DNA from: Candidatus Poribacteria bacterium
Lineage (GTDB): Bacteria > Poribacteria > WGA-4E > GCA-2687025
Assembly: GCA_963665845.2 (NCBI GenBank)
Contig: OY762492.1
Span: 2,208,001 to 2,272,000, forward strand
Length of the DNA: 64,000 nt
Direction of reading: 5' to 3'
The notes under the pieces were generated by a model. That model saw only the letters and a program-made list of their open reading frames with translations. It did no database searches and was not told where the DNA came from. This document shows positions 25,574-64,000 of this stretch, piece after piece. Numbering within the stretch: position 1 is the first letter of the stretch; each line of letters begins with the position of its first letter. The translations under genes and the position numbers were made by a program.

Positions 25574-26689
25574 TCATCGAATATAGGGGTCCCCCATAAT
25601 GTTCAGCAGTTTGGGAAAATAGTAGACCGTCGCTTGTTGTCCGCGCGCTTTTAATAACGGTTCAATAATGTTGTCGTCGCGCAGGATGCGAAGAATTCGC
25701 CGGGCGGACGTTTCAGGAATGCCGGCGCCGGCGATAAAGTTCCGGCTGGAAAAAATAGGAAACTGAAAAAGCCGCTTCAAAGCATGAACGGCGTATTTTG
25801 AGCGCGTTATCTTGGGAATGCGGAATTCCATGACGTTATATAATTCAAGGATCGCTTTCACTTTTCCCAAATCATGCTTTGCCTGCGCTTGAATTGCCAG
25901 CAGAAAAAAGCGTATCCACCCTGTCCAATCGTCGTCGCGCGAGACAGCAAGCAGCCTTTCATAGTAATCTTCTCGATGCGTCTCCAAATAGGCGCTGATG
26001 TAGAATGCGGGCGCATGGATGAGTCCGCGTTTCCATAAGAAGAGCGGAACGATCAGCCGACCCAGTCTTCCGTTTCCGTCTAGGAACGGGTGCAGCGCTT
26101 CAAATTCGGCGTGGATAACAGCGATCTGCGCCAACGGGTCGGGCGCGTCGGCATGGAGATATTTTTCCCATGCGCTCATCGCGTCGGGAAGCTTCGCTGC
26201 GGAGATGGGAACATACCGCGCGTTTTCAATAGTGGCGCCTGCAGCCCCAATAAAGTTTTGGATGCGCCGAAATTCGCCGGGGTCTTTGCCGCGTCCGCGC
26301 GCGCCCGACAGAAGCGTACGGTGGGCGTCTTTCAACACCCGCAGGCACAAGGGCAGCGTCTCCAGCGCCTCTTCCGCCTGACGCAGCGCGTCTCGGTAGT
26401 TAATGACCTCTTGCGCGTCGTCTCTTTTCGCGACGGAATCGGGTTCAATGCCCGCTTCAAATTCCAGCGCATCCTGCATTGTCGCTTGGGTACCCTCAAT
26501 GCGCGACGACATGTCCGCTTCATACATGATCAAGGTGGAGCGCAGCAACTGGGCGTTCGGCGCGGAAGCGAGCGCCTCGTCATACCGCGCGAGAGCGGCG
26601 GCGGCTTGCCCGATGTAAGGTACCAGACTCGCCCAGTCAATGCGGTCGTCCGGAGGGAACGCTCCTTCTTGGTAATGGACAGCCGTCAT
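25574..26689 (-). CDS. Fic family protein (AMP transferase) with C-terminal HTH
   Basis: SSRIEGT inhibitory motif; HPFLDGNGRLGR. Confidence 0.93.
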   Translation of the reverse strand: MTAVHYQEGAFPPDDRIDWASLVPYIGQAAAALARYDEALASAPNAQLLRSTLIMYEADMSSRIEGTQATMQDALEFEAGIEPDSVAKRDDAQEVINYRDALRQAEEALETLPLCLRVLKDAHRTLLSGARGRGKDPGEFRRIQNFIGAAGATIENARYVPISAAKLPDAMSAWEKYLHADAPDPLAQIAVIHAEFEALHPFLDGNGRLGRLIVPLFLWKRGLIHAPAFYISAYLETHREDYYERLLAVSRDDDWTGWIRFFLLAIQAQAKHDLGKVKAILELYNVMEFRIPKITRSKYAVHALKRLFQFPIFSSRNFIAGAGIPETSARRILRILRDDNIIEPLLKARGQQATVYYFPKLLNIMGDPYIR

Positions 26690-26722
26690 CGTTTTTCTCC
26701 AAAGACGAGCGCATGATGCGTT

Positions 26723-27862
26723 TCATTCATGCATGATGAGAGAGAGGTTGCGCGGCCGCCGCAATTCATAACCTTTGCCGGCGCGGTAGATGTCGCCGTC
26801 TAGGCTGATGGGGCGGCGCTCCTCAAAAGCCCTGACGACCGCTTTGAAGGACGGCGCTTCAAATACGACGTTCAAACGCATCGGCTTTCCGTTGCGCACA
26901 CAGGAGATCGCCGCTCTGCCGTCAAATTCTTCGGGTTCCCGCTCCAATTTGACAACCCATGCGACGACCTTTTCATCTAGAAACGGCTCGTTTCTTCTGA
27001 AATAATCGGCAGCTTGCTTCAAGACATCCGCGGAATGTTCTGTAAATTGAAATCGCGTCGGGTCAGTTCCCGGCATATATTCTCCCGCCCATGAGACACG
27101 TACGACGATTCCTTTCCATAGGTACGTCAAGGCAGCCAGAGAGTCGCACAGGTTGGCGCTGACGCCATGGCCGGCGGCTTGTTGGAACGGATCCATCGAT
27201 TCGGTTTTGTTTGCCGCCTGGATTGCCTTGTCCGCATGAGTCAACGCCTCCGCCAGTTTGAGCGTCGCTTGTCGGGGGAACGAGATTAAGCCGTCCGCAT
27301 ACTCCGTAAACAAAGCCCCTGCAGCATACAACGGCGAAATGAGCGTGAGAGAGTCGCCAACGCCGAAATACCGGGACGCGCGGACAAGGTTCAGATACTC
27401 GCTCACCAAGACGCTTGGACGGCCGCGGTAAACAGGCTGCGGCTTTTCGACGGCGCGCGCCGCCGAGGCGAACAGATTGCGCGCTTCTTCCAATAAGTCC
27501 GACTCTTGACGCAGCGAAAGCGCCCCTTGAGCTCCAGCGCCGCCTTCCTCTCTGAACGCATGCATATGGACAAAATCGTAACCGGCAATAGAGATTTCTT
27601 CATAAACGTCCAGCTGCGAACGCTCCTCCGCCTCGGCGAGCGCCGAAACCGCTTCGCCTATCCGCGCTGGATAGTCTGGGGCGGTGTCTTTGTGCGGGAC
27701 GATGATGTGCCAGCTGCGCCCATCCCGTTCAAAAGTAAAAAGGGAGGCGGGGCGTTTTCCCCATTGACCTTCGTCTTTCCATCCGCGGCATTTTAGATAC
27801 ATCCGCAGGCTGCGCAGCGAAAGCTTCGCTAAAGCGTCTAGATCGCGTATTTGAACGAGCAT
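26723..27862 (-). CDS. Hypothetical protein, coupled downstream of DUF4365 gene
   Basis: 379-aa ORF starting 2 nt after the DUF4365 stop; GVSANLCDSL motif; possible C-terminal OB-like strands. Confidence 0.7.
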   Translation of the reverse strand: MLVQIRDLDALAKLSLRSLRMYLKCRGWKDEGQWGKRPASLFTFERDGRSWHIIVPHKDTAPDYPARIGEAVSALAEAEERSQLDVYEEISIAGYDFVHMHAFREEGGAGAQGALSLRQESDLLEEARNLFASAARAVEKPQPVYRGRPSVLVSEYLNLVRASRYFGVGDSLTLISPLYAAGALFTEYADGLISFPRQATLKLAEALTHADKAIQAANKTESMDPFQQAAGHGVSANLCDSLAALTYLWKGIVVRVSWAGEYMPGTDPTRFQFTEHSADVLKQAADYFRRNEPFLDEKVVAWVVKLEREPEEFDGRAAISCVRNGKPMRLNVVFEAPSFKAVVRAFEERRPISLDGDIYRAGKGYELRRPRNLSLIMHE

Positions 27863-27864
27863 GG

Positions 27865-28350
27865 CTATTCTCCTTCAGAATGGATGCGACTCCACAACTT
27901 ATTAAGGAGCGCGACATCAAAGATGTTGTCAACAGGCAGAATGACCGTGACAGAGCGGACATTCTGCGTCGGCGGCATGCCCTCAAGAGACGCCCAGTAG
28001 CAGCAATGGCGCATGCGCAACTCGTCATGGGTTTGGTTCAGTCTCTCAGTCGCGTTTTTCGGCGTCAGCATGACAATCAATATGCGCGGCGCAGCAGGAT
28101 CTACGATGCGCAGGTCGTTGTAATCTTTGACAGACAGCGGATAATGCAAGCCGTCGTCCCGCATAATGTCGTCCGCCGTCGATTTCAGCTGATATTCTAT
28201 TACAGGGCGGTTTCCGAGTTCGGACATCAACATGCCGTCAATGCTTTTTCTCGGCGGATAAATGTTGTCAACCACATTCCATCCAGCCTGAGCCGCCACA
28301 GCCCGCACATACGCAACGGACAACTGCTCCATTTGTTGTTCAGGGGTCAT
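27865..28350 (-). CDS. DUF4365 (PD-(D/E)xK-like nuclease) protein
   Basis: EQLSVAYVRAVAAQAG, SIDG...YQLKST, YNDLR, PRILIV, YWASL. Confidence 0.8.
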   Translation of the reverse strand: MTPEQQMEQLSVAYVRAVAAQAGWNVVDNIYPPRKSIDGMLMSELGNRPVIEYQLKSTADDIMRDDGLHYPLSVKDYNDLRIVDPAAPRILIVMLTPKNATERLNQTHDELRMRHCCYWASLEGMPPTQNVRSVTVILPVDNIFDVALLNKLWSRIHSEGE

Positions 28351-28500
28351 CGTTGTGAAACCGCTCCTCCGCCCGCTTTATTCACGCCATGCAATTTTAG
28401 GGCGCGGCAAGGCAGTTGTCAATAGGCGGGCGGCGGCCGTTCGCAGCGTTCAAAGAGCGTATCGCCGTTTGCTGTTCATATTTCTCAAAAGTGAAGGCGG

Positions 28501-29766
28501 TTATCCGTTAGGCGGCTGCTGGTTGCCTTTAGCGATAATCTCTTGCCGCCGCTTGATCCATCCCTTGTCGGTCAGCAGTTTGATCAGCTCCTCCTGAGAC
28601 TTGGCGCCTTTATGCGCGTTGCAGGACCCGCACAGCAGCTGCAGGTTGCTGATATGGTCGTTCCCGCCATTCGCGCGCGGGATGATATGATCCACCTGAA
28701 AATGCCGCGGCTCAAAATGCGTCCCGCAAGCGGTACAGTAACCGCCCTGCTCACCGTATAGATAACGGCGGTTCTCGGCGCAGTTGTATTTCGGGATTTT
28801 GCCTAAGTCGGTACGTTTCGGTATGTCGGTTCGATGCGCGCCTCGATACATCAGCCCGACCTCCTCCTGCAGACGCGACTTTACAAGATCCGCCGCCTTC
28901 TCGGAGATGTCGATGCCGACCCATTCCCGCTGGAGCTGTTCAGCGGCGACGCAGGTCGTCGCGCAGCCGCAGAACGGATCCAACACCATGCCGCCCTCGT
29001 TCGATGACGCCTCAATAACGCGGCGCAAGAGAGCCAGCGGCTTCTGCGTCGGATAGCCTGTCCGCTCTTTTTTTAGTCTTGCGACAGGCGTAATGTCGCT
29101 CCACCAGTCCTCTACCACTTTGCCCTCATCGCTCAGGCGCGCCGATTGTTTGAAAATGCCCTGCGTCTTTCCCGTATCCAGCTTCACATAGGGAACGCGA
29201 ACTGCGTTTCTATTGAAGGCGGCGTCGTCGGAATTGGCATAAAATAAAATCACATCATGCTTGCGGGGAAACCATCGGCGCGTGTTAGACGGCCCCGTGT
29301 ATGCCCAGACCACCTCATTTCTAAAATTCGCCTTCCCGAAAACCGAGTCCATCAGCAGTTTCAGATAATGGCTCGCGGTCGGGTCGCAATGGAGGTAGAT
29401 GGAGCCGTCCGGTTTCAGAACCCTGCGCATTTCCATGATGCGGATCGACATGTAGATCAGGTAGCTCTTCATGGAGGCGCCGTGGATGTCGCGCGTCGCG
29501 GTCAGCAGCGCATAGAGGCCTGGGTATTCATGCTTGATTTCGCCGTGCCAGACCAGTTTGACATCGTCCAGCCCCCAGGTGTCTTTGAAGGCGGCGCCCG
29601 CCGCTTTGCTTCCGATGGGAGCGGCGTAGTTCGCCTTGCTGTTGAACGGCGGATCGAGATAAATCAGGTCAACGCTGTCGGAGTTCATGCCGCGCATGAT
29701 GTCCAGGTTGTCGCCTGTCCAGATCGTCTGCGAGGCGAAGTTAGCGGCGCGCGTTTCTTGTTTCAT
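28501..29766 (-). CDS. DNA methyltransferase (beta class) fused to C-terminal HNH endonuclease
   Basis: DPPF, YPTQKP, DPFCGC; C-terminal CTAC..VDHIIP..GG...NLQLLCGSCN. Confidence 0.9.
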   Translation of the reverse strand: MKQETRAANFASQTIWTGDNLDIMRGMNSDSVDLIYLDPPFNSKANYAAPIGSKAAGAAFKDTWGLDDVKLVWHGEIKHEYPGLYALLTATRDIHGASMKSYLIYMSIRIMEMRRVLKPDGSIYLHCDPTASHYLKLLMDSVFGKANFRNEVVWAYTGPSNTRRWFPRKHDVILFYANSDDAAFNRNAVRVPYVKLDTGKTQGIFKQSARLSDEGKVVEDWWSDITPVARLKKERTGYPTQKPLALLRRVIEASSNEGGMVLDPFCGCATTCVAAEQLQREWVGIDISEKAADLVKSRLQEEVGLMYRGAHRTDIPKRTDLGKIPKYNCAENRRYLYGEQGGYCTACGTHFEPRHFQVDHIIPRANGGNDHISNLQLLCGSCNAHKGAKSQEELIKLLTDKGWIKRRQEIIAKGNQQPPNG

Positions 29767-35336: not shown

Positions 35337-37250
35337 ATGAGCGATTCGCGCAACATTGACCTGAACGACATTGTTTTAACGCTTGACGATTTCAAGAACA
35401 GCGGCTGGAAAGACGCCCTGGGTCCGCCTGAGGAGCGGCGCTACTCCAAAATGTATCTCAATCTTAAGACGGCGGCGCGAATCGCTTTTGACAAGGATCA
35501 ACCCGCGCGAGGAAAAGCTCTGCTGCTGCTTTCCAACGCCTGCTCCATGATGCTTGAACCTGAATCCCGCAGCGAGCCTTTCAAGCCGATCTACAAAGAG
35601 TTTCCGTCCGGCAGACGATCACACATTCCCGACGATTTTTTGAAGCAAGATTTGGAGTTCTTTGCGGAGATTGTTGAACATATCGACGATGCGCGGTTAA
35701 AAGCCCGTTTGGCTGACATCCTATGGCTGACGGGCGCCCCCCGCAGAGACCATCAAATGGCTCTGACCGCAATTGACAGATACAGGTCGATTCCGCTGGA
35801 CATCGAAAACTGGCGCGACGACGGAAAGGAATGCTGGCATAGAGCTTTCGCATTGGCTTTCATGCAGAGATCGGGCGCGGGCGATCGCGTTGCCGATATG
35901 GAAAAAGCGATTGTCAGAGCGATTGAGTCTGTAGAATGGCCAAACAGTTTTTTCTGCGTTGAGCTGGCAGATTTTCTCAAGTCCCTCAAGCTTGGAAAAA
36001 ATCATACGCTCAAGATTGCGGAAAAGCTGGAGTCTTTCGTTATCAAAGGCAGCCTGTCAAGCATGATTGCAAACCAGTATTGGACAGCGGCGGAATGGCT
36101 TTTTGCCGCCGGCGAAAATGCAAGGGCTGCAAGCGCGCTTGTCAAAATGGCGGAATGCTATGTTCACGACGGCGACATATACGCGTCGGCGGGGGGGCGG
36201 GGACATGCAGCCGCAACCGATTTTTACCTGCAAGCGATCCATGCGTATGAAAGAATACCGAAAAAAGAGCGCGCAGCGCATCAGGCGGACGACCGAATTG
36301 CCGCGCTCAAGAAGAAGCATGAAAAATCGAGAAACAAGATCGCTGGTCAAATGTCGTCTCTCAAGGTTGATACTCCCGCCAACGATCTCATTGGAATCAT
36401 TGAAGAATCCCGCAAGGCAGTAAGCGGCAAAAGTCCGATAGAAGCGTTGGCGGCGCTTGCGCAATTGCATCAAGTCGCGAATGTCAAGGAATTGCGCGAA
36501 AGCGCTGTCGAGATGATGAAGAAGCATCCAACGCTAACATTCCTCGGAAAAACGCACCTGAGCCGCGATGGGCGCATCCTTGGGCATCAACCTGGAACAA
36601 ACCCGTTTGCGGAAATGTCTGAAGACGCTGTCTGCTTTCAAATGATCGAACAACACATGCTCTCGGTTTCTATTGCGGTTCGCGGCATTTTCATTCCCGC
36701 CCTTGATGTTTTGCATCGAGAGCATCGTTTTAGAAAAGCCGATTTTATTGAACTTGCCAGGCAATCGCCCTTCGCGCCTCCTGGACGCGAAACGCTTTTT
36801 GGAAAAGCGTTGTACGCGGGCTACGACTACGACTTTGCAACGGCGATCCATCTCCTGGCGCCGCAGATCGAAAACATGGTCAGGTTTCATCTGAAGCAGA
36901 GCAGCGCGCAAACGACTCATCTGGACAAGAATGAGAGCATTGAGGACGAGGTCAGCTTGAAGTCGTTAATGGAGCGCCCGGAAGCCGTCCAGATATTCGG
37001 CGGAAATTTGAGTTTTGAGATACGCGCGCTATTCTGCGAACGCGTCGGACCCAACCTGCGAAATCTAGTCGCGCATGGGCTGCTAGACGACGAATCGTCC
37101 CACCAGTCCGTTTACCCTGTTTATGCGTGGTGGTTGTCTCTGCGTCTCATGTTCACATCGTTTCTAGACGCGTTGCTGGACGGGTATGAGGAAGACGAGG
37201 CTCCTCAGGAACTGGACGCTGGGCCGCCTGTTGGGCGCGAGGCGTGGTGA
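35337..37250 (+). CDS. DUF4209-domain protein with HEPN-like RxxxxH motif
   Basis: LAPQIENMVR, GPNLRNLVAHGLL, YAWWL; lower GC than flanking genes. Confidence 0.7.
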   Translation: MSDSRNIDLNDIVLTLDDFKNSGWKDALGPPEERRYSKMYLNLKTAARIAFDKDQPARGKALLLLSNACSMMLEPESRSEPFKPIYKEFPSGRRSHIPDDFLKQDLEFFAEIVEHIDDARLKARLADILWLTGAPRRDHQMALTAIDRYRSIPLDIENWRDDGKECWHRAFALAFMQRSGAGDRVADMEKAIVRAIESVEWPNSFFCVELADFLKSLKLGKNHTLKIAEKLESFVIKGSLSSMIANQYWTAAEWLFAAGENARAASALVKMAECYVHDGDIYASAGGRGHAAATDFYLQAIHAYERIPKKERAAHQADDRIAALKKKHEKSRNKIAGQMSSLKVDTPANDLIGIIEESRKAVSGKSPIEALAALAQLHQVANVKELRESAVEMMKKHPTLTFLGKTHLSRDGRILGHQPGTNPFAEMSEDAVCFQMIEQHMLSVSIAVRGIFIPALDVLHREHRFRKADFIELARQSPFAPPGRETLFGKALYAGYDYDFATAIHLLAPQIENMVRFHLKQSSAQTTHLDKNESIEDEVSLKSLMERPEAVQIFGGNLSFEIRALFCERVGPNLRNLVAHGLLDDESSHQSVYPVYAWWLSLRLMFTSFLDALLDGYEEDEAPQELDAGPPVGREAW

Positions 37251-37597
37251 GACAGGGTCGGTTTGTTCCGCGCCGAGGCGACATCATCATTATTGACTTT
37301 GAGCCGCAGGCAGGCAGGGAGATTAAAAAGCGTCGTCCAGCCGTGGTGTTGTCCCCTGACAATTATAACGCCGGCGGACTTGCGATTGTCTGCCCCATCA
37401 CGAGCGACCCGCAAGGCCGCCAAATCAACCGGCCTTTTAGAGTGGCAATCCCGCCAGGATTAAGAGTACATGGGTTGATCTTGGTTGATCAAGTTAAAAG
37501 CTTGGACTGGAAAATGCGAAACGCGCAGCTTGCGGCTCAACTTCCAACGTCAACCATGCTTCTGGTTCAGCGGGAAATTGCCGCGCTATTAATATAG
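37244..37597 (+). CDS. mazF: PemK/MazF family endoribonuclease toxin
   Basis: PRRGDII.IDFEPQAGREIKKRRPAVVLS, CPITS, DQVKSLDW..R. Confidence 0.9.
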   Translation: MVRQGRFVPRRGDIIIIDFEPQAGREIKKRRPAVVLSPDNYNAGGLAIVCPITSDPQGRQINRPFRVAIPPGLRVHGLILVDQVKSLDWKMRNAQLAAQLPTSTMLLVQREIAALLI

Positions 37598-40887: not shown

Positions 40888-41691
40888 CTAAATCCAATTG
40901 CCGGCGCCGTCAAACAGCGCCGACTCCTCATGATCAAACGGGCTGGGATGGTAGGCGCGCGCCGCGCTGACAACATCCACCGGACCGCTCCCCGCTTCCC
41001 GAAGCGTATGCGCAATCTCGCCGGTTGTGGCGCCGGTCGTCACGATGTCGTCCACAAGGAGAAGGCGCCCGCCCTTCGCCCGCGCCGGCAGTTTCGCTTT
41101 AAAAACGCCCTCCAGCTCGCTGCGCCGCGCCTCAAAATTGCCGACGCGCGCCATGATGCGCGTCCGCTTCACGCGGCGCAGCCAGCCCGACCCGACCGGC
41201 AAACCGGTCAACCGACCCAGACGCCGCGCAAGGAGAGACGCCTGATCAAAACCGCGCTCCAAACGGCGGACGCGGTGACCTGGCGCGTACACAACCGCCT
41301 CATAAACCGCCCAGTCGTACAACGGCGGCTCCACTCGAACGATCATCTCCGCAAAATACGGCGCCATATGCGGCTTCCGCCCATACTTCATCGCCAGCAG
41401 CGCCGCGCGCAATACGCCCGAATAATGACCCGCCGCGCGCATCCTGCCGACCGCCCTGTTCGACTCGTTCCGCTGAGGGCAATGCCCGCATCTGTCCAGA
41501 TCGACCGCGCTGGGAACGCCGCAGCTTCCGCACTTGGCGCCATGCCAAAGCGGGATATTCTCCCAGCACCGCATGCATAGAACAGACGAACCGATCCGCT
41601 TGCGTCCGCACAGGCGGCAGTCCATCGGGTAGAGCATGTCCAGCGCGCCGTCCGCCGCCGCCTTGATGAAGGAGAGCGTCCGCTTTTTCAT
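40888..41691 (-). CDS. comF: ComF family protein (double zinc ribbon + PRTase)
   Basis: Several CxxC motifs, ERGFDQA, LLVDDIVTTGAT. Confidence 0.9.
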   Translation of the reverse strand: MKKRTLSFIKAAADGALDMLYPMDCRLCGRKRIGSSVLCMRCWENIPLWHGAKCGSCGVPSAVDLDRCGHCPQRNESNRAVGRMRAAGHYSGVLRAALLAMKYGRKPHMAPYFAEMIVRVEPPLYDWAVYEAVVYAPGHRVRRLERGFDQASLLARRLGRLTGLPVGSGWLRRVKRTRIMARVGNFEARRSELEGVFKAKLPARAKGGRLLLVDDIVTTGATTGEIAHTLREAGSGPVDVVSAARAYHPSPFDHEESALFDGAGNWI

Positions 41692-42924: not shown

Positions 42925-44358
42925 TTAAACAGGAAAGAGCGACGCGCCTCCGCCGCCCGACACAAACCGCGCCAAACCCGACGACGACAACCCAACGGTC
43001 AACGCCAGCGCGAGCGAATCGCCGTAGTCGGGGCTGCGCCCTAGACGCTTCCGCATCTCATCCTTGCTCTCCAGCTTGATCTGACCCTTCGACGAGTAGG
43101 CGTACCGCGCCGCCGTCAGGTCTTCCATCAGCCGCCCATGCCGCGGAACCGCGCCGCCGTTTCGCACCCATTCGCGCATTGTCCACCACATCTCGGCGCG
43201 CTTGTTTAAAAAACGAGCCTTGTCGAGAGCCGAGCTGCCCGCGTTCACCGCCGCGACCGGAACGCCCAACTCCCGCAGCCGATCCACCACGCCCCCGCCG
43301 ACCCCGATGTCGTCCACCGCGATGCGCTGAATTCCCAGATCGCTCTTCAAACGGGCGGCGCGCCCGGCGATTTCCATCGCGCTTCGCCCCCGCTCCTCTT
43401 CTATGCGCTCCACCCGATTTTCCGACGCCAGCGTGTAAACGGTCGCGTCCGATCCGTAGCGCGCCACATCGACGCCCATGCGCAGCGCGCTGTCCGCCTC
43501 CGCCGCTCCCGCCTCATAACGCTCCACCGCCTGCTCAACCCACTCCAGCGATATGAGCTGGTCGCTGGAAAGCTGCGGAAAGTAGCCCATCACTTTCGAC
43601 ATATATTCAGGGGAATCTTCGCCCCATTCGCGCGCCTTCTCCTCCACCCAGACAGGCGCGACGAGGCGCGACTTCAGCTCCTCCGAGACCGCCTCGTTCG
43701 TGAAATTCGGCGAGTCTAGACAGCCCATCCGCAGCACATTCCAAGCGTCCGAACGGCATGCGTCGTAAAAATGCCCCTGCCGTTCGGTCGGATTTCCGAT
43801 CATCAACATATGGGCGTCGCCCGCGCTCATGAGCGAATCGGCGCCCAGATACACCTCCCGCCGGACGCCCGGCGCCTCATCGATGACGACCAGCACATGT
43901 TTTTGGTGAAAGCCTTGAAAACGAACCCGATCCGCCGGCGAGATGCCGAGCGCGAACCAGTCGTCCTGTATCTGCAGGCGCGTTTGAGAGGCGGAGCCTG
44001 GGTAGTCCGCGGGCGCGAGCCTGTCCTTGTAGAGCGCGTTGATCTCGCTCCACAACAGCTGGCGCACCTGCGTCCATGTCGGCGCGGTGGTGATCACCTT
44101 GGAGGGTTGCCGCAGATACAGGAACGCCAGCGACGCCGCCGCCGACACAAACGTTTTGCCGACGCCATGCCCCGCCGGCACCGCCGTTCGGCGGTTTGAA
44201 AACACGGAGCGCAGCACCTCTTTTTGCCGACTCCACAGCTCCAGATTCATCGCCTCCGCCGCCCAGGACGCCGGGTCGTTTAACCATCGTTTGAGATTTT
44301 CGGGACCCGATCCTTTGCGTCCGGCATCGAAACATTTCAGATTCAGCTCCGTTGTCAT
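42925..44358 (-). CDS. terL: Phage terminase large subunit
   Basis: Walker A GHGVGKT, Walker B VVIDEA, IGNP coupling motif, nuclease GVDVARYGSD and RSPDYGDSL; strong AAGGAGGAGG RBS. Confidence 0.9.
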   Translation of the reverse strand: MTTELNLKCFDAGRKGSGPENLKRWLNDPASWAAEAMNLELWSRQKEVLRSVFSNRRTAVPAGHGVGKTFVSAAASLAFLYLRQPSKVITTAPTWTQVRQLLWSEINALYKDRLAPADYPGSASQTRLQIQDDWFALGISPADRVRFQGFHQKHVLVVIDEAPGVRREVYLGADSLMSAGDAHMLMIGNPTERQGHFYDACRSDAWNVLRMGCLDSPNFTNEAVSEELKSRLVAPVWVEEKAREWGEDSPEYMSKVMGYFPQLSSDQLISLEWVEQAVERYEAGAAEADSALRMGVDVARYGSDATVYTLASENRVERIEEERGRSAMEIAGRAARLKSDLGIQRIAVDDIGVGGGVVDRLRELGVPVAAVNAGSSALDKARFLNKRAEMWWTMREWVRNGGAVPRHGRLMEDLTAARYAYSSKGQIKLESKDEMRKRLGRSPDYGDSLALALTVGLSSSGLARFVSGGGGASLFPV

Positions 44359-44735
44359 TCGCCTCCTCCTTCGAACGACCTGATCAGCGCATTCATCGTT
44401 TTAATGAATTAACGAAGCCGGACGCCCGCTCCGCATTTCACCGCTCCATCTGCGCGGGGCTTTCTGGACTCCCCTTGAAAAAGGGGCAGGAGGGTTTTCT
44501 GGACTCCCCCTTGAAAAGGGGGGCTGGGGGGGTTTTCCGCGGGCGCGGACGTTGTCGGGTTCGCCTCTGGATTCCCGCTTACGCGGGAATGACGGTTTGG
44601 TTCGACAGCCGTCGCGCAAAATGAATATCATCGCCTGTAGAGACTGCCTCGCCGGCAGCATGCTTGCATTTTAAATTCGCTTATCGTATCATGAGAGCGG
44701 CGGAATCATCCGTCCGCAACTGAGGGAGTTACGCC

Positions 44736-45035
44736 ATGAACGACGACGTCAGATCGGAACTGTACGCGCTGATCCAAAAACTTGACGCCTACATTGCGCG
44801 GGAAGAACGCCTCGAAAATGCTATTGAGGCGAACAGAAACGCCATTGAGGTGAACAGAAACGCCATTGCGGAAAACAGAAAAGCCATTGAGAAAAACAGA
44901 GACGCCATTGAGCAGAATGGAAGGGCTATCGCGCGGCTCGAGGGAAAAATCGCCGGCAGCATTATCATCATCGGGCTAGCGGCAGGTCTACTGGGACCAC
45001 TGGTCATGGTGATCGTGAATCTGGTCAGCAAATAA
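44736..45035 (+). CDS. Small coiled-coil protein with 7-aa repeats and C-terminal TM
   Basis: NAIEANR/NAIEVNR/NAIAENR/KAIEKNR/DAIEQNG heptads encoded by 21-nt repeats; GGGAG RBS. Confidence 0.75.
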   Translation: MNDDVRSELYALIQKLDAYIAREERLENAIEANRNAIEVNRNAIAENRKAIEKNRDAIEQNGRAIARLEGKIAGSIIIIGLAAGLLGPLVMVIVNLVSK

Positions 45036-56498: not shown

Positions 56499-57881
56499 TC
56501 AAAACAGGGCGATGGTTGGATCCAGCTCCTTGCCCGTGTACGGGTTCAGCATCTGCGGAAGGCTGGGGAGGCGGCGTTCAAAATAGTCTTGGATTGACCA
56601 GAGCTGCAGCCGTTCATACTCGGTTCCTAAGACGGCGATCTTGCCTTTTTCGCGCGCTTCGGCTCTTGCGGCGCGCGTCTCTACAGGATCCAACGTGATG
56701 TAATAGCCGAGAGCCGCCTGGTCGCGTTCCATGACGCCGCTGAAATCGCGCAGATGCGACAGGCTGAACCGCCCGCCCTTCACCTGCGCCAGCGCGAGGC
56801 GCGACTCGGCGCCGTCGGGAGCATGCGCCAACGCCGCCCTGCCGTCCACGCCGCCGTCGCCTGTCTGCTTCATATTTGGGGCAAATCCAGGCAGGCGCAT
56901 CACCGCCCAGGATTCAAAATCGAACGGCTTCTCGCGCGCCGACTTACGCGCCGACGCCATGTCCCGCGGTATTCCCTTCGCCGGTATGTTTTCGTTTTTA
57001 AACCGCTCCTTGCGTATCAGGTCGATCGCAAAGGAGCTGATGTCGATGCCCGCCCATCGGCGGTTGAGGCGTCGGGCGGCGTCGATGGATGTGCTGCATC
57101 CGCAGAACGGGTCTAAGACGATGTCGCCTTCGTTGGAGGACGCCTTGATGATGCGTTCCAGCAGTTTCAACGGCTTTTGAGTCGGGTAACCCGTATGCTC
57201 GCTTGCCCACGGCATGATCGAGTTGAGAACGATCACATCGTCCGGCAGTTTGCCTTTCTCATAATTTCTTTCCGATCCGTCCGCCCGCCGCTGTCCTTTT
57301 GTCCATTTGTATGGAACGCGGACATCGTCCACATTGAATGTCCAGCGGTTCGATTTTGTATAAAAAAAGATCGTGTCGTGCTTGCGCGCAAACCGCTTTT
57401 TAGACGCTCCGCCGCCGCTGTAGTGCCAGACCAGCTCGTTTTGAAAATGCCCCTTCCCAAAGACAGCGTCCATAACGATTTTGAGATAATGGCTGGCGGT
57501 CGGGTCGCAGTGGAGATAGAGCGAGCCTGTCGGTTTCAGCAGGCGGCGCATCTCGATCAGCCTCTCCGCCATGTAGGTTAGATACGCCAGCATACCGCTT
57601 TTGCCGAGTATCTGCCGCAAGCCGACGATCGTATCGCGGGCGGGTCGCGCTAAGGCGTTTTCAAACGCTTCATAACGTTCGACCGCCGCGTCGTCCCAGT
57701 GCCATGTGTCGTTGAAGGCGCGGTATTGCGCCTTGCCGCCGGCAGGTTCGTCGGCGAAGAGGACATTGTATTTGGCGGCGCTGTTGAACGGCGGGTCGAG
57801 ATAAATCAGGTCGACGCATTCGGCGTCCCACTGGCGCATCCAGTCTAGGCAGTCGCCGTAGTAGAGATGGTTCGGCTGCAT
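56499..57881 (-). CDS. DNA methyltransferase (beta class) fused to C-terminal Mrr-like nuclease domain
   Basis: DPPF, YPTQKP, DPFCGC; C-terminal FDFESWAV...GDGGVDG...LAQVKGG. Confidence 0.88.
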   Translation of the reverse strand: MQPNHLYYGDCLDWMRQWDAECVDLIYLDPPFNSAAKYNVLFADEPAGGKAQYRAFNDTWHWDDAAVERYEAFENALARPARDTIVGLRQILGKSGMLAYLTYMAERLIEMRRLLKPTGSLYLHCDPTASHYLKIVMDAVFGKGHFQNELVWHYSGGGASKKRFARKHDTIFFYTKSNRWTFNVDDVRVPYKWTKGQRRADGSERNYEKGKLPDDVIVLNSIMPWASEHTGYPTQKPLKLLERIIKASSNEGDIVLDPFCGCSTSIDAARRLNRRWAGIDISSFAIDLIRKERFKNENIPAKGIPRDMASARKSAREKPFDFESWAVMRLPGFAPNMKQTGDGGVDGRAALAHAPDGAESRLALAQVKGGRFSLSHLRDFSGVMERDQAALGYYITLDPVETRAARAEAREKGKIAVLGTEYERLQLWSIQDYFERRLPSLPQMLNPYTGKELDPTIALF

Positions 57882-57960
57882 TGCTGTTTCCCCTAGAAAG
57901 AGGCTGCCGTCGCTTTAACATGAGACAAATGCGCGGCGTTGTCAAGGACGCAGGCGGTTC

Positions 57961-58870
57961 TAGACTCCCCCCTTGAAAAGGGGGGCTGGGGGGTTTTCAG
58001 CGGGCGGGTTGCGCTTGGTTTTGAACTAGGATGGAAGGATTAGTAAGATTGCCAAGATAGGGCTTACAGGCATTCTTTTGGCAATCTTTTCAATCTTGGC
58101 AATCCTAGTTCAGACAACGAGGGATGGCGCCGGCGGATAGATAGCGGTTTTGACGAATGCGAACGGTTCTTGCCGGGACTCTGGATTCCCGCTTGCGCGG
58201 GAATGACGGCGTGTGGAGACGACGCGAATGGCGGATGCGGGCGGTTTTGGCGGCTCTGACTAGACTCCCCCTTGAAAAGGGGGGCAGGGGGGGTTTTCAG
58301 CGGGCGGGTTGCGCTTGGTTTTGAACTAGGATGGAAGGATTAGTAAGATTGCCAAGATAGGGGCTTACAGGCATTCTTTTGGCAATCTTTTCAATCTTGG
58401 CAATCCTAGTTCAGACAACGAGGGATGGCGCCGGCGGATAGATGGCGGTTTTGACGAATGCGAACGGTTCTTGCCGGGACTCTGGATTCCCGCTTGCGCG
58501 GGAATGACGGCGTGTGGAGACGACGCGAATGGCGGATGCGGGCGGTTTTGGCGGCTCTGACTAGACTCCCCCTTGAAAAGGGGGGCAGGGGGGGTTTTCA
58601 GCGGGCGGGTTGCGCTTGGTTTTGAACTAGGATGGAAGGATTAGTAAGATTGCCAAGATAGGGGCTTACAGGCATTCTTTTGGCAATCTTTTCAATCTTG
58701 GCAATCCTAGTTCAGACAACGAGGGATGGCGCCGGCGGATAGATGGCGGTTTTGACGAATGCGAACGGTTCTTGCCGGGACTCTGGATTCCCGCTTGCGC
58801 GGGAATGACTCCCGGCGGCGCGGGAGCTGCTAGACTCCCCCCTTGAAAAGGGGGGCAGGGGGGGTTTCCG
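57961..58870. repeat. ~300-bp tandem repeat x3 built from three palindromic repeat families
   Basis: Units start at 57961, 58261 and 58562; each has CCCCCTTGAAAAGGGGG, the family-3 hairpin and ATTCCC-N8-GGGAAT. Confidence 0.92.
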
Positions 58871-59041
58871 CGGGGGCGAACAGCTCCCGCGGCGCCTAAG
58901 ATTCCCGCTTGCGCGGGAATGGCCCCCGTTTTCACGGGGGCAGGCTATGGGGGCGCGCCTGCCTACATAAAAATTATCCACAATTTGTCAACTGCTGCGT
59001 TAAGAGAGGCGACTCTGCCTCTTAACCGCGACGCCGCCAAC

Positions 59042-60343
59042 ATGGAGAACCTATTGCCGATGCGCCTATCGTTCACCGACTTTAAACGGCTCTTCAAATG
59101 GAAACGAAAAAACCCGTCTGAACCGACGCTGCGCGAACTGGGCGCGTCCGGCACCGCGCTTTTCAGCGGCAATCTATGGGAAGAACTGCTGCCTGAATTG
59201 AGCGGACCGGCGCGCATGGAGGTTTATGAACGCATGCGCGCCGACGCGCAGGTTGCCGCCGTCCTGAACGTCATTGAGCTGCCGATACGCGCCGCCGATT
59301 TTACCGTTGAGCCTGCTGACGCCGGCGCGTCCGCCCGCGAAACCGCCGAATTCATCGACGACGCCCTCCGCTGTATGGACGACTCCTTCGACGATTTCCT
59401 GCGCCAATCGCTGCTGATGCTCGCTTACGGGTTCATGCTGTTTGAGAAGGTGTATGAGGTCCGCCCGGACGGGCGCATCGGGTGGGTCAAGTTTGCCCCG
59501 CGCCTGCCGCGCACCGTCGTACGCTGGGCTCATGACGGCGCGGGTCGGCTGTCGGGCGTTGAGCAGCGCGTCATCGGCGACGCGGCGCGCCATGTCGTCA
59601 TCCCCGTTGAGAAGCTGATGCGGTTCACCTACCGCCAAGAGGGGGACAATTACGAAGGGCGCCCTCTGCTCAAAGATGTGTATAAACACTGGCGGCACAA
59701 GGACACATTATACAGGTTTGCGGCGATTGCGGCGGAGCGCGCCGGGGTCGGCGTTCCGATCATCACCGTGCCGCCTGGGACGCCGCAGTCGGATCTGAAC
59801 GCGGCGTTTCAGATTGTGGAGGCGTTTCGCGCGGGCGAAAAGACCGGCATTGTGCTGCCGAACGATTACACGTTTGCGCTGTCGGCGACGCGCGGATTTC
59901 CGCATATGAACCTGATTGAACATCACAACGGCATGATCGCCAAGGCGGCTCTCGCGCAGTTTTTGAATCTCGGTCAGGCAAATGTGGGCAGTTTTGCGCT
60001 GTCCGCCTCGCAGACCGACCTGTTTTTGATGGCTCTGAACGGCTTGCTGCAGCATCTGTGCGCCGTCATCAATCGGCAGGCTGTACAGGAGCTGTCGCGC
60101 TGGAACTTCGGCGGGAACGCGCCGGTTCCGCGCATCCGCGCCAAGCTGCGCAACTACGACACGCGCCAGCTTGCGGAGACGCTGGATATGTTGACGCGCG
60201 GCGAGCTGCTGACGCCGGACGAGTCGGTTGAGGCGTTCATACGCGAAACGCTTGACCTGCCTTCCAAACGCGCATCGAAACGCGCCAACCATGAACAGAA
60301 AGGAGAAACGATGCATGACAATCGAAAAGGAGAACGTCTATGA
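59042..60343 (+). CDS. Phage portal protein (DUF935/Mu gp29-like)
   Basis: ELGASG, YERMRADAQVAAVL, YGFMLFEKVY, GRPLLK.VYKHW, ERAGVGVP, GSFALS. Confidence 0.85.
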   Translation: MENLLPMRLSFTDFKRLFKWKRKNPSEPTLRELGASGTALFSGNLWEELLPELSGPARMEVYERMRADAQVAAVLNVIELPIRAADFTVEPADAGASARETAEFIDDALRCMDDSFDDFLRQSLLMLAYGFMLFEKVYEVRPDGRIGWVKFAPRLPRTVVRWAHDGAGRLSGVEQRVIGDAARHVVIPVEKLMRFTYRQEGDNYEGRPLLKDVYKHWRHKDTLYRFAAIAAERAGVGVPIITVPPGTPQSDLNAAFQIVEAFRAGEKTGIVLPNDYTFALSATRGFPHMNLIEHHNGMIAKAALAQFLNLGQANVGSFALSASQTDLFLMALNGLLQHLCAVINRQAVQELSRWNFGGNAPVPRIRAKLRNYDTRQLAETLDMLTRGELLTPDESVEAFIRETLDLPSKRASKRANHEQKGETMHDNRKGERL

Positions 60344-61275
60344 ACAAAACGCCTGCCAAACGGTTTTTCGCCTCTCTCGCGCTGAATGAGCGCGTCGGCG
60401 GGGAGTCGCCGAAATGGGTCTCTAGCGTTCAGCTGCTGCGCAAAGGCGTGTTTCAGCACGCTTGGCACGGATCGCTTGAGATCGATGAAGATTTGTTTGC
60501 CTCGCTGATACGCAACTTCGACGCGGACGCGCGCGGCATCGACATCGCGCTGGATGTGGAGCATATGCCGGATCTGGGCGCCGCGGGATGGTTCCGCCGT
60601 CTGTTTGCGGACAACTCGGAGAGCGAGCTGTGGGGCGATGTGGAATGGACGCCTGCCGGACGAAAGCTGGTGGAGGAGGGCGCGTTCAAGTACCTCTCCA
60701 TCGAATACGATCTGGACTACGCGGACGAGGAGGGCGGCAAACATGGTCCGACGATGCTGGGCGCGGCGTTGACAAACCGCCCGTTCATCAAGCGCATGCG
60801 CGCCGCTTCGTTCCGTTTTGCCGAGCCGAGCAGCGACCCTGGGATGATTCTGTTGACGGAGCAGGAGCGGCGTCTCCACAGCGAGCTGGCGCGGCTGGAC
60901 GCCGAGAAGGCGCGGCTGGAAACGGAGCTGCGCAAGGCGTCGGTGGAGCGGGTTCTCTCGGAAGGCAAGCGGAGGGGGCGCGTCTCTCCCGCGATGGAGA
61001 GCTGGCTGGAGGAGCTGGCGGAAAAAGAGGGGGTTGAACGTCTGCGCGCCGTTCTGGAGACGCTTCCTGAACAGATCGACTTTTCGGAGATTGGTTCGCC
61101 CGGCGGCGCGCAGTCGACAAGCGCGGCGGACGCTCTCCATGAAGCGGTGAACGCGGAGATGCGCCGCATGCGCGAGGAAAACCCGGACGCGAACCCGTCC
61201 TATGCGGACGCGCTGGCGGCGGTGGAATCTCGGCAGCCGGGGCTTGTGGAGGCGTATAAGGCGCAGCGGCGGTGA
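60340..61275 (+). CDS. Mu-like prohead protease/scaffold (gpI family)
   Basis: LDVEH..AAGW, VEWTPAG, FKYLS, GAALTNRPF; C-terminal coiled coil with GRVSPA. Confidence 0.88.
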   Translation: MNKTPAKRFFASLALNERVGGESPKWVSSVQLLRKGVFQHAWHGSLEIDEDLFASLIRNFDADARGIDIALDVEHMPDLGAAGWFRRLFADNSESELWGDVEWTPAGRKLVEEGAFKYLSIEYDLDYADEEGGKHGPTMLGAALTNRPFIKRMRAASFRFAEPSSDPGMILLTEQERRLHSELARLDAEKARLETELRKASVERVLSEGKRRGRVSPAMESWLEELAEKEGVERLRAVLETLPEQIDFSEIGSPGGAQSTSAADALHEAVNAEMRRMREENPDANPSYADALAAVESRQPGLVEAYKAQRR

Positions 61276-61327: not shown

Positions 61328-61723
61328 ATGGCGACTCAACAGCTGGTGACAGGAAACGAGGTCAGTTACGGGGCTTCCGCCGACTTGAGCGGCAAGCCGT
61401 TTCGTTATGTGAAACTGGCGTCGATATCGGGTCAGGTCGCGCTGTGCGGCGCGGCGGACATACCGGTCGGCGTCTTGCAGAATCGCCCCCGTTCGGGGGA
61501 CGCCGCGGCGGTCATCACGCTTTCAGGCGCGGTGGCGAAGGCGGTCTCGGACGGGTCGCAGAGCGCCATCGCCATCGGCGACACGGTCGGCTCCGACGCG
61601 AACGGAAAGGCGGTCAAAAAGACGGTCGCCGGGAGCTGGTACAACGGCGTCGCCCTGGAAACGTCCAGCCAGGACGGCAAGGTGATTCGCATTCAGCTGA
61701 CCGGTCCGCAGCAGCGGTCTTAA
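61328..61723 (+). CDS. Capsid cement/decoration protein (DUF2190-like)
   Basis: ASADL, GVLQNRP, IAIGD.VGSDANGKAV, GVALE; located between protease and capsid genes. Confidence 0.75.
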   Translation: MATQQLVTGNEVSYGASADLSGKPFRYVKLASISGQVALCGAADIPVGVLQNRPRSGDAAAVITLSGAVAKAVSDGSQSAIAIGDTVGSDANGKAVKKTVAGSWYNGVALETSSQDGKVIRIQLTGPQQRS

Positions 61724-61759: not shown

Positions 61760-62698
61760 ATGCCGTTCCCGAGCGCGCGCGACGTCCATCAGGACAGCGT
61801 GCTGACAAATCTCTCGGTTCAATACCGCAACGAAGAATACATTGCCGCGCAGTGCGTTCCGAAGGTCCTGGTGCGGAAAGCGTCCGACAAGTACTACGAG
61901 TTCGATCAGGGCGACTGGTTCCGCGACGAAGCGGGCGAACGCGCCGCCGCGACCACCGGCCCGGTCGGCGGATACAGCCTCTCGACGCGCAGCTACGACA
62001 CGAAGCAGTACTCGATGGCGACCTATGTCGCGGACGAGGAGCGGGACAACGCGGACGCGGGTCTCGACCTGGACCGGCAAGCCATCGAATACTGCGCCGA
62101 CAAGGTTCAGCTGCGGTTTGAAACGCAGGCGGCGGGTCTGCTTTTCAAGGTGGGCAGTTACCCGACGGGGCATAAAAAGACGCTCAGCGGAACCGCCCAG
62201 TGGAGCGACGCCGCCTCGACGCCGATAGCGGACATCCGGGCGGCGAAGTCGCAGGTCGGCGGGGCCATCGGGCGTCAGCCCAACACGCTCATTCTGGGCG
62301 AGCAGACCTATCTTCAGCTCCAGGACCATCCGGACGTCTTGGACAGGGTGAAGTACACGCAGAGCGGGGCGGTGACGCCTGATCTGCTGGCGGGCTTGTT
62401 CGATGTGAAGCGCGTTCTTGTCGGGCGGGCTGTTCAGAACACGGCGGCGGAAGGGCTGGAGCCGTCCTACGCGCGCGTCTGGGGCAAGCACGCGGCGCTG
62501 ATCTACACGGCTCCGACGCCGGGTCTGCGCACGCTTTCGTTCGCTTACTGGTTCGTCTGGCGCGGTTACGATTTCACGGCGGAGCGCTGGCGGAAGTCGG
62601 ACGGGGGCGCCTCGGACGGTTTTCGGGTTCGCGCGCAGTGGGATTCGAAGATCGCGGCGAAGACGGCGGGTTATTTCATCGAGAACGCTGTCGCTTGA
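61760..62698 (+). CDS. Major capsid protein
   Basis: LTNLSVQYRN..YIA..VPKV.V, WSD..STPIADI, GRQPNTLILG..Y..L..HP, AGYFIENAVA; position in head operon. Confidence 0.85.
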   Translation: MPFPSARDVHQDSVLTNLSVQYRNEEYIAAQCVPKVLVRKASDKYYEFDQGDWFRDEAGERAAATTGPVGGYSLSTRSYDTKQYSMATYVADEERDNADAGLDLDRQAIEYCADKVQLRFETQAAGLLFKVGSYPTGHKKTLSGTAQWSDAASTPIADIRAAKSQVGGAIGRQPNTLILGEQTYLQLQDHPDVLDRVKYTQSGAVTPDLLAGLFDVKRVLVGRAVQNTAAEGLEPSYARVWGKHAALIYTAPTPGLRTLSFAYWFVWRGYDFTAERWRKSDGGASDGFRVRAQWDSKIAAKTAGYFIENAVA

Positions 62699-63046: not shown

Positions 63047-63451
63047 ATGGCGTATTCCAACGTCTCCGACATTCAAAAGCTGTTCGCAAACATCGTCTTT
63101 GACGCTTCCTCGCCTGTGACCAGCTCCGACATCGAATCGAAGCATATACCGAAAGCGGACGCCTATATCGACGCGCGGCTGCGCAGCCGGTATGAGACGC
63201 CGATTTCAGCGGATGGCGACCTGGAATTGATGCGGCTCATCAGTTCGAATCTCGCGGCGGGTTTCGTCGCCGAGGTGTTGTATGAAACGTCGCAGCAGCC
63301 GAACGATCAGGCGTCTGCGCGTCAACGGCGCGGCTTTGCCGAGGAGCTGCTTGATCAGATCATGGAGGGAACGGCGGTTCTTGAAACGCCGAGAAAGCCG
63401 ATCGCCGGCATTGTCGGCGCGGGTTCGTCCTTGGCGGGGGAGGATGCTTGA
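63047..63451 (+). CDS. Head-tail connector (Mu gp36/DUF1320-like)
   Basis: MAYSNVSDI, ADAYIDARLRSRYETPI, AEELLDQIMEG. Confidence 0.75.
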   Translation: MAYSNVSDIQKLFANIVFDASSPVTSSDIESKHIPKADAYIDARLRSRYETPISADGDLELMRLISSNLAAGFVAEVLYETSQQPNDQASARQRRGFAEELLDQIMEGTAVLETPRKPIAGIVGAGSSLAGEDA

Positions 63452-63970
63452 ATGGCGTATGTCGTTCTTTCCGAAAAGCAAGCGGCGGCGTCCGAACATA
63501 CGTTGGAGGGGTTGAAGCGGCTGAAAGCGGTTCTGGACGCGAACGCGGCGGTACTGAAGTCGGGCGGGCGCTCGGCTGTGTCGACAACCGTCTTTACGGG
63601 CGCGCAGCATGCTATCGGGCGGTTTCCAGCGATACAGGCGGAAGCCGCTGAAGCGTACGAGGAGCCGACAGGGATGCGCTGGGGGGCGGTCAGCCTGCTG
63701 TATATGCGCTTTCGGCTCTTTGCGTTCGATATTGCGCTGGGGCGTCCGTCGGCTCTGGCGGAGAACCTGGCGCAGTTCAGCGACCGCATTCAGGCGGTGT
63801 TGCGGAAAAACAGGACGCTGGACGGGTTCTGCCGAAATGTGCATATCGATAAGGTGGTGCATGGGCGTCTTCGCGGCGGACCGCGCAGTTCGAATCCGGT
63901 GTTTGCGTCGCATCCGATCTTGGCGGCGCAGATCGATGCGACCGTTGAAAAAGCGATTGAGCGCGATTAA
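63452..63970 (+). CDS. Putative phage neck/tail-completion protein
   Basis: Abuts the gp36-like gene; FPAI and VLRKNRTLDG motifs. Confidence 0.5.
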   Translation: MAYVVLSEKQAAASEHTLEGLKRLKAVLDANAAVLKSGGRSAVSTTVFTGAQHAIGRFPAIQAEAAEAYEEPTGMRWGAVSLLYMRFRLFAFDIALGRPSALAENLAQFSDRIQAVLRKNRTLDGFCRNVHIDKVVHGRLRGGPRSSNPVFASHPILAAQIDATVEKAIERD

Positions 63971-63994: not shown

Positions 63995-64000
63995 ATGACG
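63995..64000 (+). CDS. Start of the next gene of the phage-like operon (truncated by window edge)
   Basis: GGAAGGAG RBS followed by ATGACG. Confidence 0.45.

What the first reader, a model, noticed from the sequence alone, without database searches (positions are those of the whole stretch)
42925..44358. Orphan, intact large terminase embedded among host genes
Seen: complete ATPase and nuclease motifs, a strong RBS, host-like GC and host repeats on both sides. No small terminase precedes it, and the portal gene is ~15 kb away on the other strand beyond serS and two tRNAs. Known: prophages usually keep terS-terL-portal adjacent, while GTAs often have dispersed loci and package DNA non-specifically. 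Inference: a domesticated packaging motor serving the head operon.
Basis: partly seen in the sequence, partly recalled or inferred. Interest (0 to 1): 0.72.

Follow-up and report, generated by a model that had tools for sequence, protein, structure and literature searches.

The report
Tamed phage head kit in Poribacteria
This lone virus DNA-packaging gene is intact, under purifying selection, and sits next to the capsid genes in related Poribacteria, so it is likely the relocated motor of a tamed, inherited phage particle that would fill nearly tail-less capsids with host DNA, like a gene transfer agent.

Summary
Observation confirmed. Window 42925-44358 (-) encodes an intact 477-aa large terminase (phrog_2; Sf6/E217-like fold). 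Relatives carrying it are labelled Candidatus Poribacteria. It belongs to the head operon 15 kb away: in two other genera of the family terL lies directly before the portal. The gene set occurs in 5 of 8 family genomes (4 of 5 genera) and in 0 of 146 genomes of other families searched with the capsid. Against the sister species, terL has dS 0.25 (host median 0.25) and dN/dS 0.11 (host 0.18). No integrase or replication genes flank it. Two other genera keep a fuller 14.5-kb head-tail cluster; this genus has no detectable small terminase, endolysin, tape measure, distal tail or hub. The split is real (also in the sister species), but the 15-kb spacing is not conserved. Best reading: a domesticated, GTA-like particle of independent origin, reduced here to head, neck and one tube gene. 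Packaging, particles, transfer and expression are untested. The scan reported similar split modules before in other phyla, none in Poribacteria.

The parts
42925..44358 (-). Large terminase (TerL), 477 aa, ATPase plus RNase H-fold nuclease, intact
   Evidence: dN/dS 0.11
44359..44445 (-). terL upstream region with RBS; conserved in the sister species although the gene upstream differs; holds GCTTCGTTAA 60 nt before the start (weak hint of a shared promoter element)
58965..59059 (+). Upstream region of the head operon, conserved in the sister species; holds GCTGCGTTAA 66 nt before the start
59060..60343 (+). Portal protein (Portal_Mu / P23-45-like, phrog_113), 427 aa
   Evidence: dN/dS 0.08
60340..61275 (+). 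Mu gpI-like maturation protease / scaffold, 311 aa
   Evidence: dN/dS 0.15
61328..61723 (+). Capsid cement (decoration) protein, 131 aa
   Evidence: PF09956; dN/dS 0.32
61760..62698 (+). Major capsid protein (phrog_1005, PF03864), 312 aa
   Evidence: dN/dS 0.09
63047..63451 (+). Head-tail adaptor (Mu gp36-like), 134 aa
   Evidence: dN/dS 0.17
63452..63970 (+). 172-aa conserved protein between adaptor and tube; neck or tail-terminator role inferred from position only
   Evidence: 51-55% identical in two other genera; dN/dS 0.05; fold prediction failed
63995..64000 (+). Start of a single tail-tube gene (156 aa, runs to G000:C1:2272465), followed beyond the window by a 91-aa coiled-coil plus transmembrane protein (holin-like, inferred) and then host serA
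   Evidence: tube dN/dS 0.45

Best explanation
The gene is the intact large terminase of a phage-derived head-tail cluster kept under purifying selection in this Poribacteria family, and it likely still acts in trans on the portal 15 kb away, where it would cut host DNA without sequence preference and pump headfuls into capsids, as gene transfer agents do. Shown: intact enzyme motifs; adjacency to the portal in two other genera; divergence equal to host genes; no integrase or replication genes beside the clusters; no detectable TerS, endolysin, tape measure, distal tail or hub in this genome. Inferred: the cluster was captured once before the family radiated, lost in one genus, and trimmed in this genus to head, neck and one tube gene; repeat-driven rearrangement (the orientation fits one inversion) moved terL away. 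Inferred and untested: loss of the DNA-recognising TerS removes packaging specificity; the product is a DNA-filled capsid with a stub tail. How it would leave the cell or deliver DNA in this genus is open.
For: terL directly precedes the portal in G002 and G004, and terS-terL-endolysin-portal in loci L154 and (to the endolysin) L039. Cluster genes in 5 of 8 family genomes, 4 of 5 genera; capsid in 0 of 146 genomes of other families. dS 0.25 for terL and median 0.25 for 9 cluster genes and for 47 host genes; terL dN/dS 0.11 versus host median 0.18. Between genera TerL 62-63%, portal 58-62%, capsid 71% versus GroEL 63-67%, AlaRS 63-70%. 15 of 15 members of the TerL 90% cluster are full length. 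G002 cluster spans about 14.5 kb between PPDK and an RNA methylase with only host genes in the flanks read; G003 ends at the same holin-like gene. Best annotated phage TerL is 38% identical. TerL folds like Sf6 gp2, a headful packager (recalled); RcGTA TerL derives from headful phages (PMC7947584, abstract). Holosporaceae GTAs show the same pattern of head kept, tail lost, terL elsewhere (PMC9254644, passages).
Against: No particle, packaged DNA, transfer or expression data. RcGTA needs its TerS (PMC6854486, passages), and none is found here. This genome has no detectable tape measure, distal tail, hub, fibre or endolysin, so injection and release are unexplained. TerL was not found in G003 (95% complete, 290 contigs; its portal contig begins inside the endolysin, so an assembly gap is possible). 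The G002 capsid gene has a frameshift in that assembly. Host and cluster trees agree on the best topology but neither rejects the alternatives; gyrB alone gave another, weakly supported order. dN/dS rests on one species pair. Amino-acid cost shift known from RcGTA is slight for TerL and absent for the capsid.
Confidence: 0.5

Rival explanations
1. Domesticated particle with a role other than gene transfer in this genus: DNA-filled or empty tail-less heads serve as phage decoys, as a sink that mis-packages invading phage DNA or tails, or in host interaction.
For: Head, neck and TerL are under strong purifying selection while the tube is relaxed (0.45) and the rest of the tail and the endolysin are undetectable. 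Repurposing was proposed for tail-less GTA heads of endosymbionts (PMC9254644, passages). The window is rich in defence genes.
Against: No PADLOC match for TerL. Keeping both ATPase and nuclease sites fits DNA packaging. Other genera keep tail and lysis genes. No direct evidence for any such role.
Confidence: 0.24
2. Tail-borrowing gene transfer: the cell makes DNA-filled heads with adaptor and neck and relies on tails and lysis of infecting phages, as capsid-forming PICIs do, but with host DNA as cargo.
For: Retained set (TerL, portal, protease, capsid, adaptor, neck-like protein) resembles what cf-PICIs keep; tail-less cf-PICI capsids join foreign tails (bioRxiv 10.1101/2025.02.11.637232, abstract). 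The neck-position protein is the most conserved gene (dN/dS 0.05).
Against: No integrase, replicase or TerS, so it is not a PICI. A tube gene is still kept. No helper phage identified; no prophage block detected elsewhere in the genome by comparison with 82 viral or prophage loci.
Confidence: 0.1
3. Cryptic prophage in slow decay, or related temperate phages integrated independently in each genus; the orphan terL is a leftover.
For: Stepwise gene loss across genera; different chromosomal neighbours in each genus; absent from genus g5; two contigs of the clade are filed in IMG/VR. Prophage genes can show purifying selection for a time (recalled).
Against: dS equal to host genes with dN/dS below the host median; no stops in 9 of 9 genes in two species; 15 full-length TerL variants; host-like codon use; terL kept after physical separation. 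One of the two IMG/VR contigs has the length and gene content of G003:C141 and the other holds only the cluster's genes and an IS fragment.
Confidence: 0.09
4. TerL has been co-opted on its own as a host nuclease or ATPase, independent of the heads.
For: It is physically separate and co-oriented with an oxidoreductase and a ComF-like gene in both species. A prophage terminase with tRNase activity is reported (PMC11610961, search listing only).
Against: Portal, protease and capsid are equally conserved in the same genomes and TerL and capsid homologues of the clade show matching contig lengths in the protein searches.
Confidence: 0.05
5. Misassembly separated terL from the portal.
For: Both genes are bounded by high-copy repeats, and no read contig spans the 15 kb.
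Against: The sister species, assembled separately, has the same terL-oxidoreductase-comF and serS-tRNA-portal junctions; run contigs carry terL on into its own flanks.
Confidence: 0.02

Closest known systems
Reduced RcGTA-like clusters of Holosporaceae and Rickettsiales endosymbionts (PMC9254644; passages read)
   Same: Head and portal kept under purifying selection, most tail genes missing, large terminase encoded away from the main cluster, tail genes more relaxed than head genes.
   Different: Those descend from RcGTA. This one has a Mu-like portal and protease, a phrog_1005 capsid and an Sf6/E217-like TerL, so it is a separate capture in another phylum.
RcGTA of Rhodobacter capsulatus (Rhodogtaviriformidae)
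   Same: About 14-15-kb head-tail cluster without integrase or replication genes (the G002 form; RcGTA size recalled), short tape-measure-position gene, vertical inheritance.
   Different: No NCBIfam or Pfam GTA family hit; RcGTA has an essential TerS lacking the DNA-binding domain (PMC6854486), whereas here TerS is undetectable in five genomes and, where present in the clade, still has an HTH-like N-terminus.
FpGTA of Faecalibacterium prausnitzii (PMC12946183; section 9 read)
   Same: Split loci, independent origin outside Alphaproteobacteria, particles without visible tails, some strains with only the head operon.
   Different: FpGTA keeps terS and terL in the head operon, is podovirus-like and is experimentally shown to package about 9-kb DNA; here terL is the part that moved and nothing is shown experimentally.
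Capsid-forming PICIs (bioRxiv 10.1101/2025.02.11.637232; abstract read)
   Same: Own capsid, portal, terminase and connector, no complete tail.
   Different: cf-PICIs are mobile, have integrase, replication and TerS genes (recalled) and package their own DNA; none of that is found here.
Shigella phage Sf6 gp2 and Pseudomonas phage E217 TerL
   Same: Closest solved structures by fold and sequence.
   Different: Only about 20% identical; phage enzymes encoded next to their TerS.

Membership tests
Gene transfer agent (viriform definition, PMC9662315) | Proteins derived from tailed-phage ancestors that can form a virion-like particle | tested here: met
   TerL, portal, protease, cement, capsid, adaptor and tube match phage families. 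Particle formation itself not observed.
Gene transfer agent (viriform definition, PMC9662315) | Fully endogenised in the host genome, often across several loci | tested here: met
   Two loci among host genes on a 3.95-Mb contig; no att-like duplicate of the two tRNAs; the only two integrase-motif genes found lie over 400 kb away; same split in G001.
Gene transfer agent (viriform definition, PMC9662315) | Mostly vertical inheritance, congruent host and element trees | tested here: inconclusive
   dS equal to host genes and family-restricted range support it; best topology is the same for host and element but alternatives are not rejected (host p-AU 0.63 versus 0.45).
Gene transfer agent (viriform definition, PMC9662315) | Encapsidates mostly random host DNA | not testable with these tools
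   Needs particle DNA sequencing.
Gene transfer agent (viriform definition, PMC9662315) | Cannot package its own full gene set | not testable with these tools
   Head size unknown; loci are at least about 62 kb apart in G001.
Gene transfer agent (viriform definition, PMC9662315) | Delivers DNA to other cells | not testable with these tools
   Needs a transfer assay; tape measure, distal tail and hub not found in G000 or G001.
RcGTA family (Rhodogtaviriformidae) | Orthologues of the RcGTA head-tail genes with a TerS before terL | tested here: not met
   Mu-type portal and protease, phrog_1005 capsid; no NCBIfam hit for nine cluster proteins; no TerS.
Capsid-forming PICI | Integrase, replication module and TerS within a compact mobile island | tested here: not met
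   None in the flanks of G000, G001, G002 or in the read flanks of G003 and G004.
Intact temperate prophage | Integrase, repressor, replication, full tail and lysis genes in one block | tested here: not met
Large terminase (TerL) | N-terminal ASCE ATPase with Walker A, Walker B and coupling motif plus C-terminal RNase H-fold nuclease with acidic triad | tested here: met

The most novel reading that the evidence does not exclude
An independently domesticated phage in Poribacteria has been pared down in this genus to a TerS-free motor and a nearly tail-less head that packs random host DNA and borrows tails and lysis from infecting phages. The family would show the whole series in living genomes: terS-terL-endolysin-head-tail, then loss of terS and endolysin, then loss of the tail with terL moved away, and in the sister genus replacement by a second, unrelated tamed phage.
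Probability: 0.12. Interest if true: 0.88.

Novelty: new variant of a known kind. Interest (0 to 1): 0.62.

Why it matters
Few GTA lineages are known, and I found no description of one in Poribacteria in five literature searches. This would be a separate capture of a Mu-like siphophage in an uncultured phylum. It offers a graded series of gene loss within one family, which lets one ask which parts a tamed phage needs. A motor conserved without any detectable small terminase would test directly whether losing TerS is enough to turn specific viral packaging into random host-DNA packaging. The operon is small (5.7 kb plus 1.4 kb), so it can be expressed in a laboratory strain.

Tried and rejected
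Small terminase elsewhere in the genome: 14 profiles from ORFs upstream of related terL genes gave only HTH proteins; the best single-domain candidate (C1:3600705-3600980) has no real match in G001-G004 and was rejected. A 105-sequence phrog_309-type profile found the two spiked clade TerS (E 3e-27, 1e-6) and no native protein with a significant domain (the profile was seeded from those TerS, so the control is not fully independent). Second TerL-like hit at C1:1352441 was weak and not pursued. DnaA-box-like 9-mer before the portal is not conserved in G001: rejected. Shared 10-mer before terL and portal: 2 of 4 intergenic copies genome-wide and conserved in G001, but found post hoc, and 68-92 of 400 random upstream regions share some such 10-mer: weak hint only. 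Structure of the 172-aa protein: pLDDT 41, unusable; Atlas and PDB sequence searches gave no name. Carbon-cost bias: TerL 2.96 (10 clade proteins) versus 3.03 +/- 0.06 (100 others), capsid no difference: inconclusive. Expression: no RNA holder listed. Rfam found only the two tRNAs. Sigma-70 scan found no promoter on the terL strand. No complex prediction was run, as TerL-portal is a textbook pair.

Full report
Observation. Window 42925-44358 (-) is a 477-aa ORF with a GGAGGAGG ribosome site. It matches phrog_2, terminase large subunit, at E 6e-40 and has no Pfam or NCBIfam hit. A model built on 18 homologues (pLDDT 81) is closest to Sf6 gp2 and the E217 nuclease, then D6E, HK97 and T4 TerL. 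Walker A, Walker B, coupling motif and nuclease aspartates (labels recalled) are invariant in 17 of 17 close homologues. Codon use is host-like (the model was trained on this genome). The flanking repeats have hundreds of copies genome-wide. The portal starts at 59060 on the other strand, beyond serS and two tRNAs.

The partner operon. From 59060 the genes are portal (Mu type), Mu gpI-like protease, cement protein, major capsid (phrog_1005), Mu gp36-like adaptor, a 172-aa unknown, one tail-tube gene and a 91-aa holin-like gene (inferred from shape and position), then host serA. Tail chaperones, the conserved C-terminal piece of the tape-measure-position gene, distal tail, hub, fibres and endolysin of relatives gave no tblastn hit in the 3.98-Mb, three-contig, 90%-complete genome, and distal tail, hub and endolysin were not found in G001 either. 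Comparison of 1707 ORFs from 82 viral or prophage loci with all called genes showed no other structural block.

Host and range. Source names and record titles of close homologues read Candidatus Poribacteria. Of 41 genomes searched, TerL was found in 4 (G000, G001 95%, G002 62%, G004 63%), the capsid in 5 and the portal in 6. The extra G007 hits are 25-31% identical and lie in ordinary prophage-like blocks. So the cluster is in 5 of 8 family genomes and 4 of 5 genera. A second draw of 151 phylum genomes found the capsid in 3, all in this family, and in 0 of 146 from other families. G002 and G004 are only 61-64% complete and TerL was not found in G003. Rooted trees place G003 first in the family and the cluster-free genus g5 as sister of this genus (rpoC support 100; gyrB 64), which implies presence in the family ancestor and loss in g5 if inheritance was vertical.

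Architecture series. In G002 and G004 terL is directly followed by the portal. In L154 the order is terS, terL, M15 endolysin, portal, protease, cement, capsid; L039 shows terS, terL, endolysin; L160 shows terL, endolysin, portal; G003 has the endolysin end before its portal. G002 holds a contiguous cluster of about 14.5 kb with three tube paralogues, chaperones, a poorly conserved tape-measure-position ORF, distal-tail-like and hub-like genes (named mostly by position) and the holin-like gene, between PPDK and an RNA methylase. G003 has the same tail genes and ends at the same gene before host genes. No integrase, repressor or replication gene was seen in the flanks read. The G002 capsid carries a frameshift in that assembly.

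The split is real. G001 has terL followed by the same oxidoreductase and ComF-like gene on one contig and serS-tRNA-Asp-tRNA-Val-portal...serA on another, at least about 62 kb apart. The two genomes are collinear only in blocks of 1-5 kb in the 40 kb compared, so the genus is heavily shuffled and the 15-kb spacing is not conserved. The back-to-back orientation in G000 is what one inversion with a breakpoint between terL and portal would give (inference). Contigs of four runs from one study cover terL at about the depth of portal and host genes and break at the repeats; none spans the interval, and they may be the source of the assembly.

Selection. Nei-Gojobori estimates against G001: terL dN 0.027, dS 0.25, ratio 0.11; portal 0.08, capsid 0.09, 172-aa protein 0.05, protease 0.15, adaptor 0.17, holin-like 0.15, cement 0.32, tube 0.45. 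The 47 host orthologues in the same four loci have median dS 0.25 and ratio 0.18 (quartiles 0.14-0.26); hits under 75% identity and multi-copy families were dropped before counting. All 15 members of the 90% TerL cluster are 475-479 aa. Between genera, cluster proteins are about as conserved as GroEL and AlaRS. Host (1702 sites) and cluster (625 sites) alignments prefer the same five-taxon tree, but neither rejects the next best. In a tree of 86 TerL sequences, G000, G001, the G004 protein and the L154/L039-type proteins form a clade with support 0.98, with G002 just outside at 0.80. The best annotated phage match among 50,697 records is 38% identical. Amino-acid cost bias was inconclusive.

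Small terminase. The ORF before terL in L154, L039 and one more contig (P0123; linked by equal contig length) belongs to a family whose 20 members tested all match phrog_309, terminase small subunit. A three-sequence profile found nothing in G000-G004 and a 105-sequence profile found the spiked controls but no native homologue in G000. So TerS existed in the clade and is not detectable here. A very divergent or unrelated replacement cannot be excluded; GTA TerS are hard to find by sequence (PMC6854486, passages).

Mechanism. Shown: an intact, selected motor gene and an intact, selected head operon that were once one unit and are not mobile. Inferred: TerL docks on the portal in trans, nicks and cuts chromosomal DNA and fills heads by headful packaging. 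T4 TerL packages heterologous DNA in vitro without TerS, though TerS is essential in vivo for T4 and RcGTA (PMC6854486, passages). In genera with tail and endolysin this would be a conventional GTA-like particle. In this genus release and delivery are unexplained, which leaves room for a repurposed head or for borrowed tails.

Comparison and literature. By the six-point GTA definition (PMC9662315, passages) two points are met, one is inconclusive and three need experiments, so it is filed as GTA-like, not as a GTA. It is not RcGTA-family and not a cf-PICI. The closest pattern is the reduced Holosporaceae GTA with its terL elsewhere (PMC9254644, passages); FpGTA is a split, tail-poor precedent outside Alphaproteobacteria (PMC12946183, passages and section 9). 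PMC7947584 and bioRxiv 10.1101/2025.02.11.637232 were seen as abstract and outline; PMC11610961 as a listing. Searches for Poribacteria with gene transfer agent, with prophage or terminase, with phage and sponge, with GTA and with capsid listed nothing on such a cluster, judged from titles and abstract starts; PMC4533152 only mentions viral sequences in Poribacteria (passages). No supplements were read, and tables of virus or GTA surveys could list these contigs. Earlier scan notes describe similar split modules in Clostridia and Hydrogenedentota; these are unchecked and were used only as leads.

Verdict. Real feature; domestication strongly supported; GTA-type function likely but unproven. 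New variant of a known kind, interest 0.62.

Noticed in passing
L330:7524-16056 (G005:C38) and L331:3740-12219 (G007:C93); L332; L333:4395-6545: Genus g5, which lacks this cluster, shares a different phage head-neck block among host genes (phrog_206 scaffold, phrog_1328 capsid 97% identical between two species, 1020-aa glycosyltransferase, M15 endolysin, neck genes), without portal or terminase in the block; tail-like genes lie nearby in G005. Possibly a second tamed phage in the same family.
   Followed up: partly
L025:10648-11451 (G000:C1:2862647-2863450): Second, ATPase-only TerL-like ORF (267 aa, 26-29% identical to the main TerL, phrog_5902), with DN in place of the Walker B DE; not found in G001-G004.
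   Followed up: partly
window 40888-41691 (-): ComF/GntX-like DNA-utilisation gene two genes downstream of terL, same strand, same order in G001. ComF is a GTA recipient factor in Rhodobacter (recalled); may be coincidence.
   Followed up: partly
window 57960-58920: Three tandem units of about 300 nt built from several host repeat families directly before the portal; absent at this place in G001, as is the methylase-Mrr gene 56499-57881.
   Followed up: no
window 44566-44594 and genome-wide: A 29-nt palindromic repeat with about 780 near-full copies and a second family with about 160; likely drivers of the strong gene-order shuffling.
   Followed up: partly
window 25574-29766 and 35337-37597: Defence cluster: SoFic-like Fic protein, PDC-M02A/B pair, methylase-HNH fusion, PDC-S39 protein and a MazF-like toxin.
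   Followed up: no
window 44736-45035 (+): 99-aa protein of 7-residue tandem repeats (21-nt period) with a C-terminal membrane helix, divergent from terL.
   Followed up: no
L034:4787-6526 and L035:3667-5383: G002 and G003 each encode three tandem tail-tube paralogues before a short, poorly conserved tape-measure-position ORF, suggesting a very short tail of distinct rings.
   Followed up: partly
L340 and L154: The only two IMG/VR contigs with this capsid clade (2 of 13 loci returned) look like chromosomal pieces of the cluster filed as viruses.
   Followed up: partly
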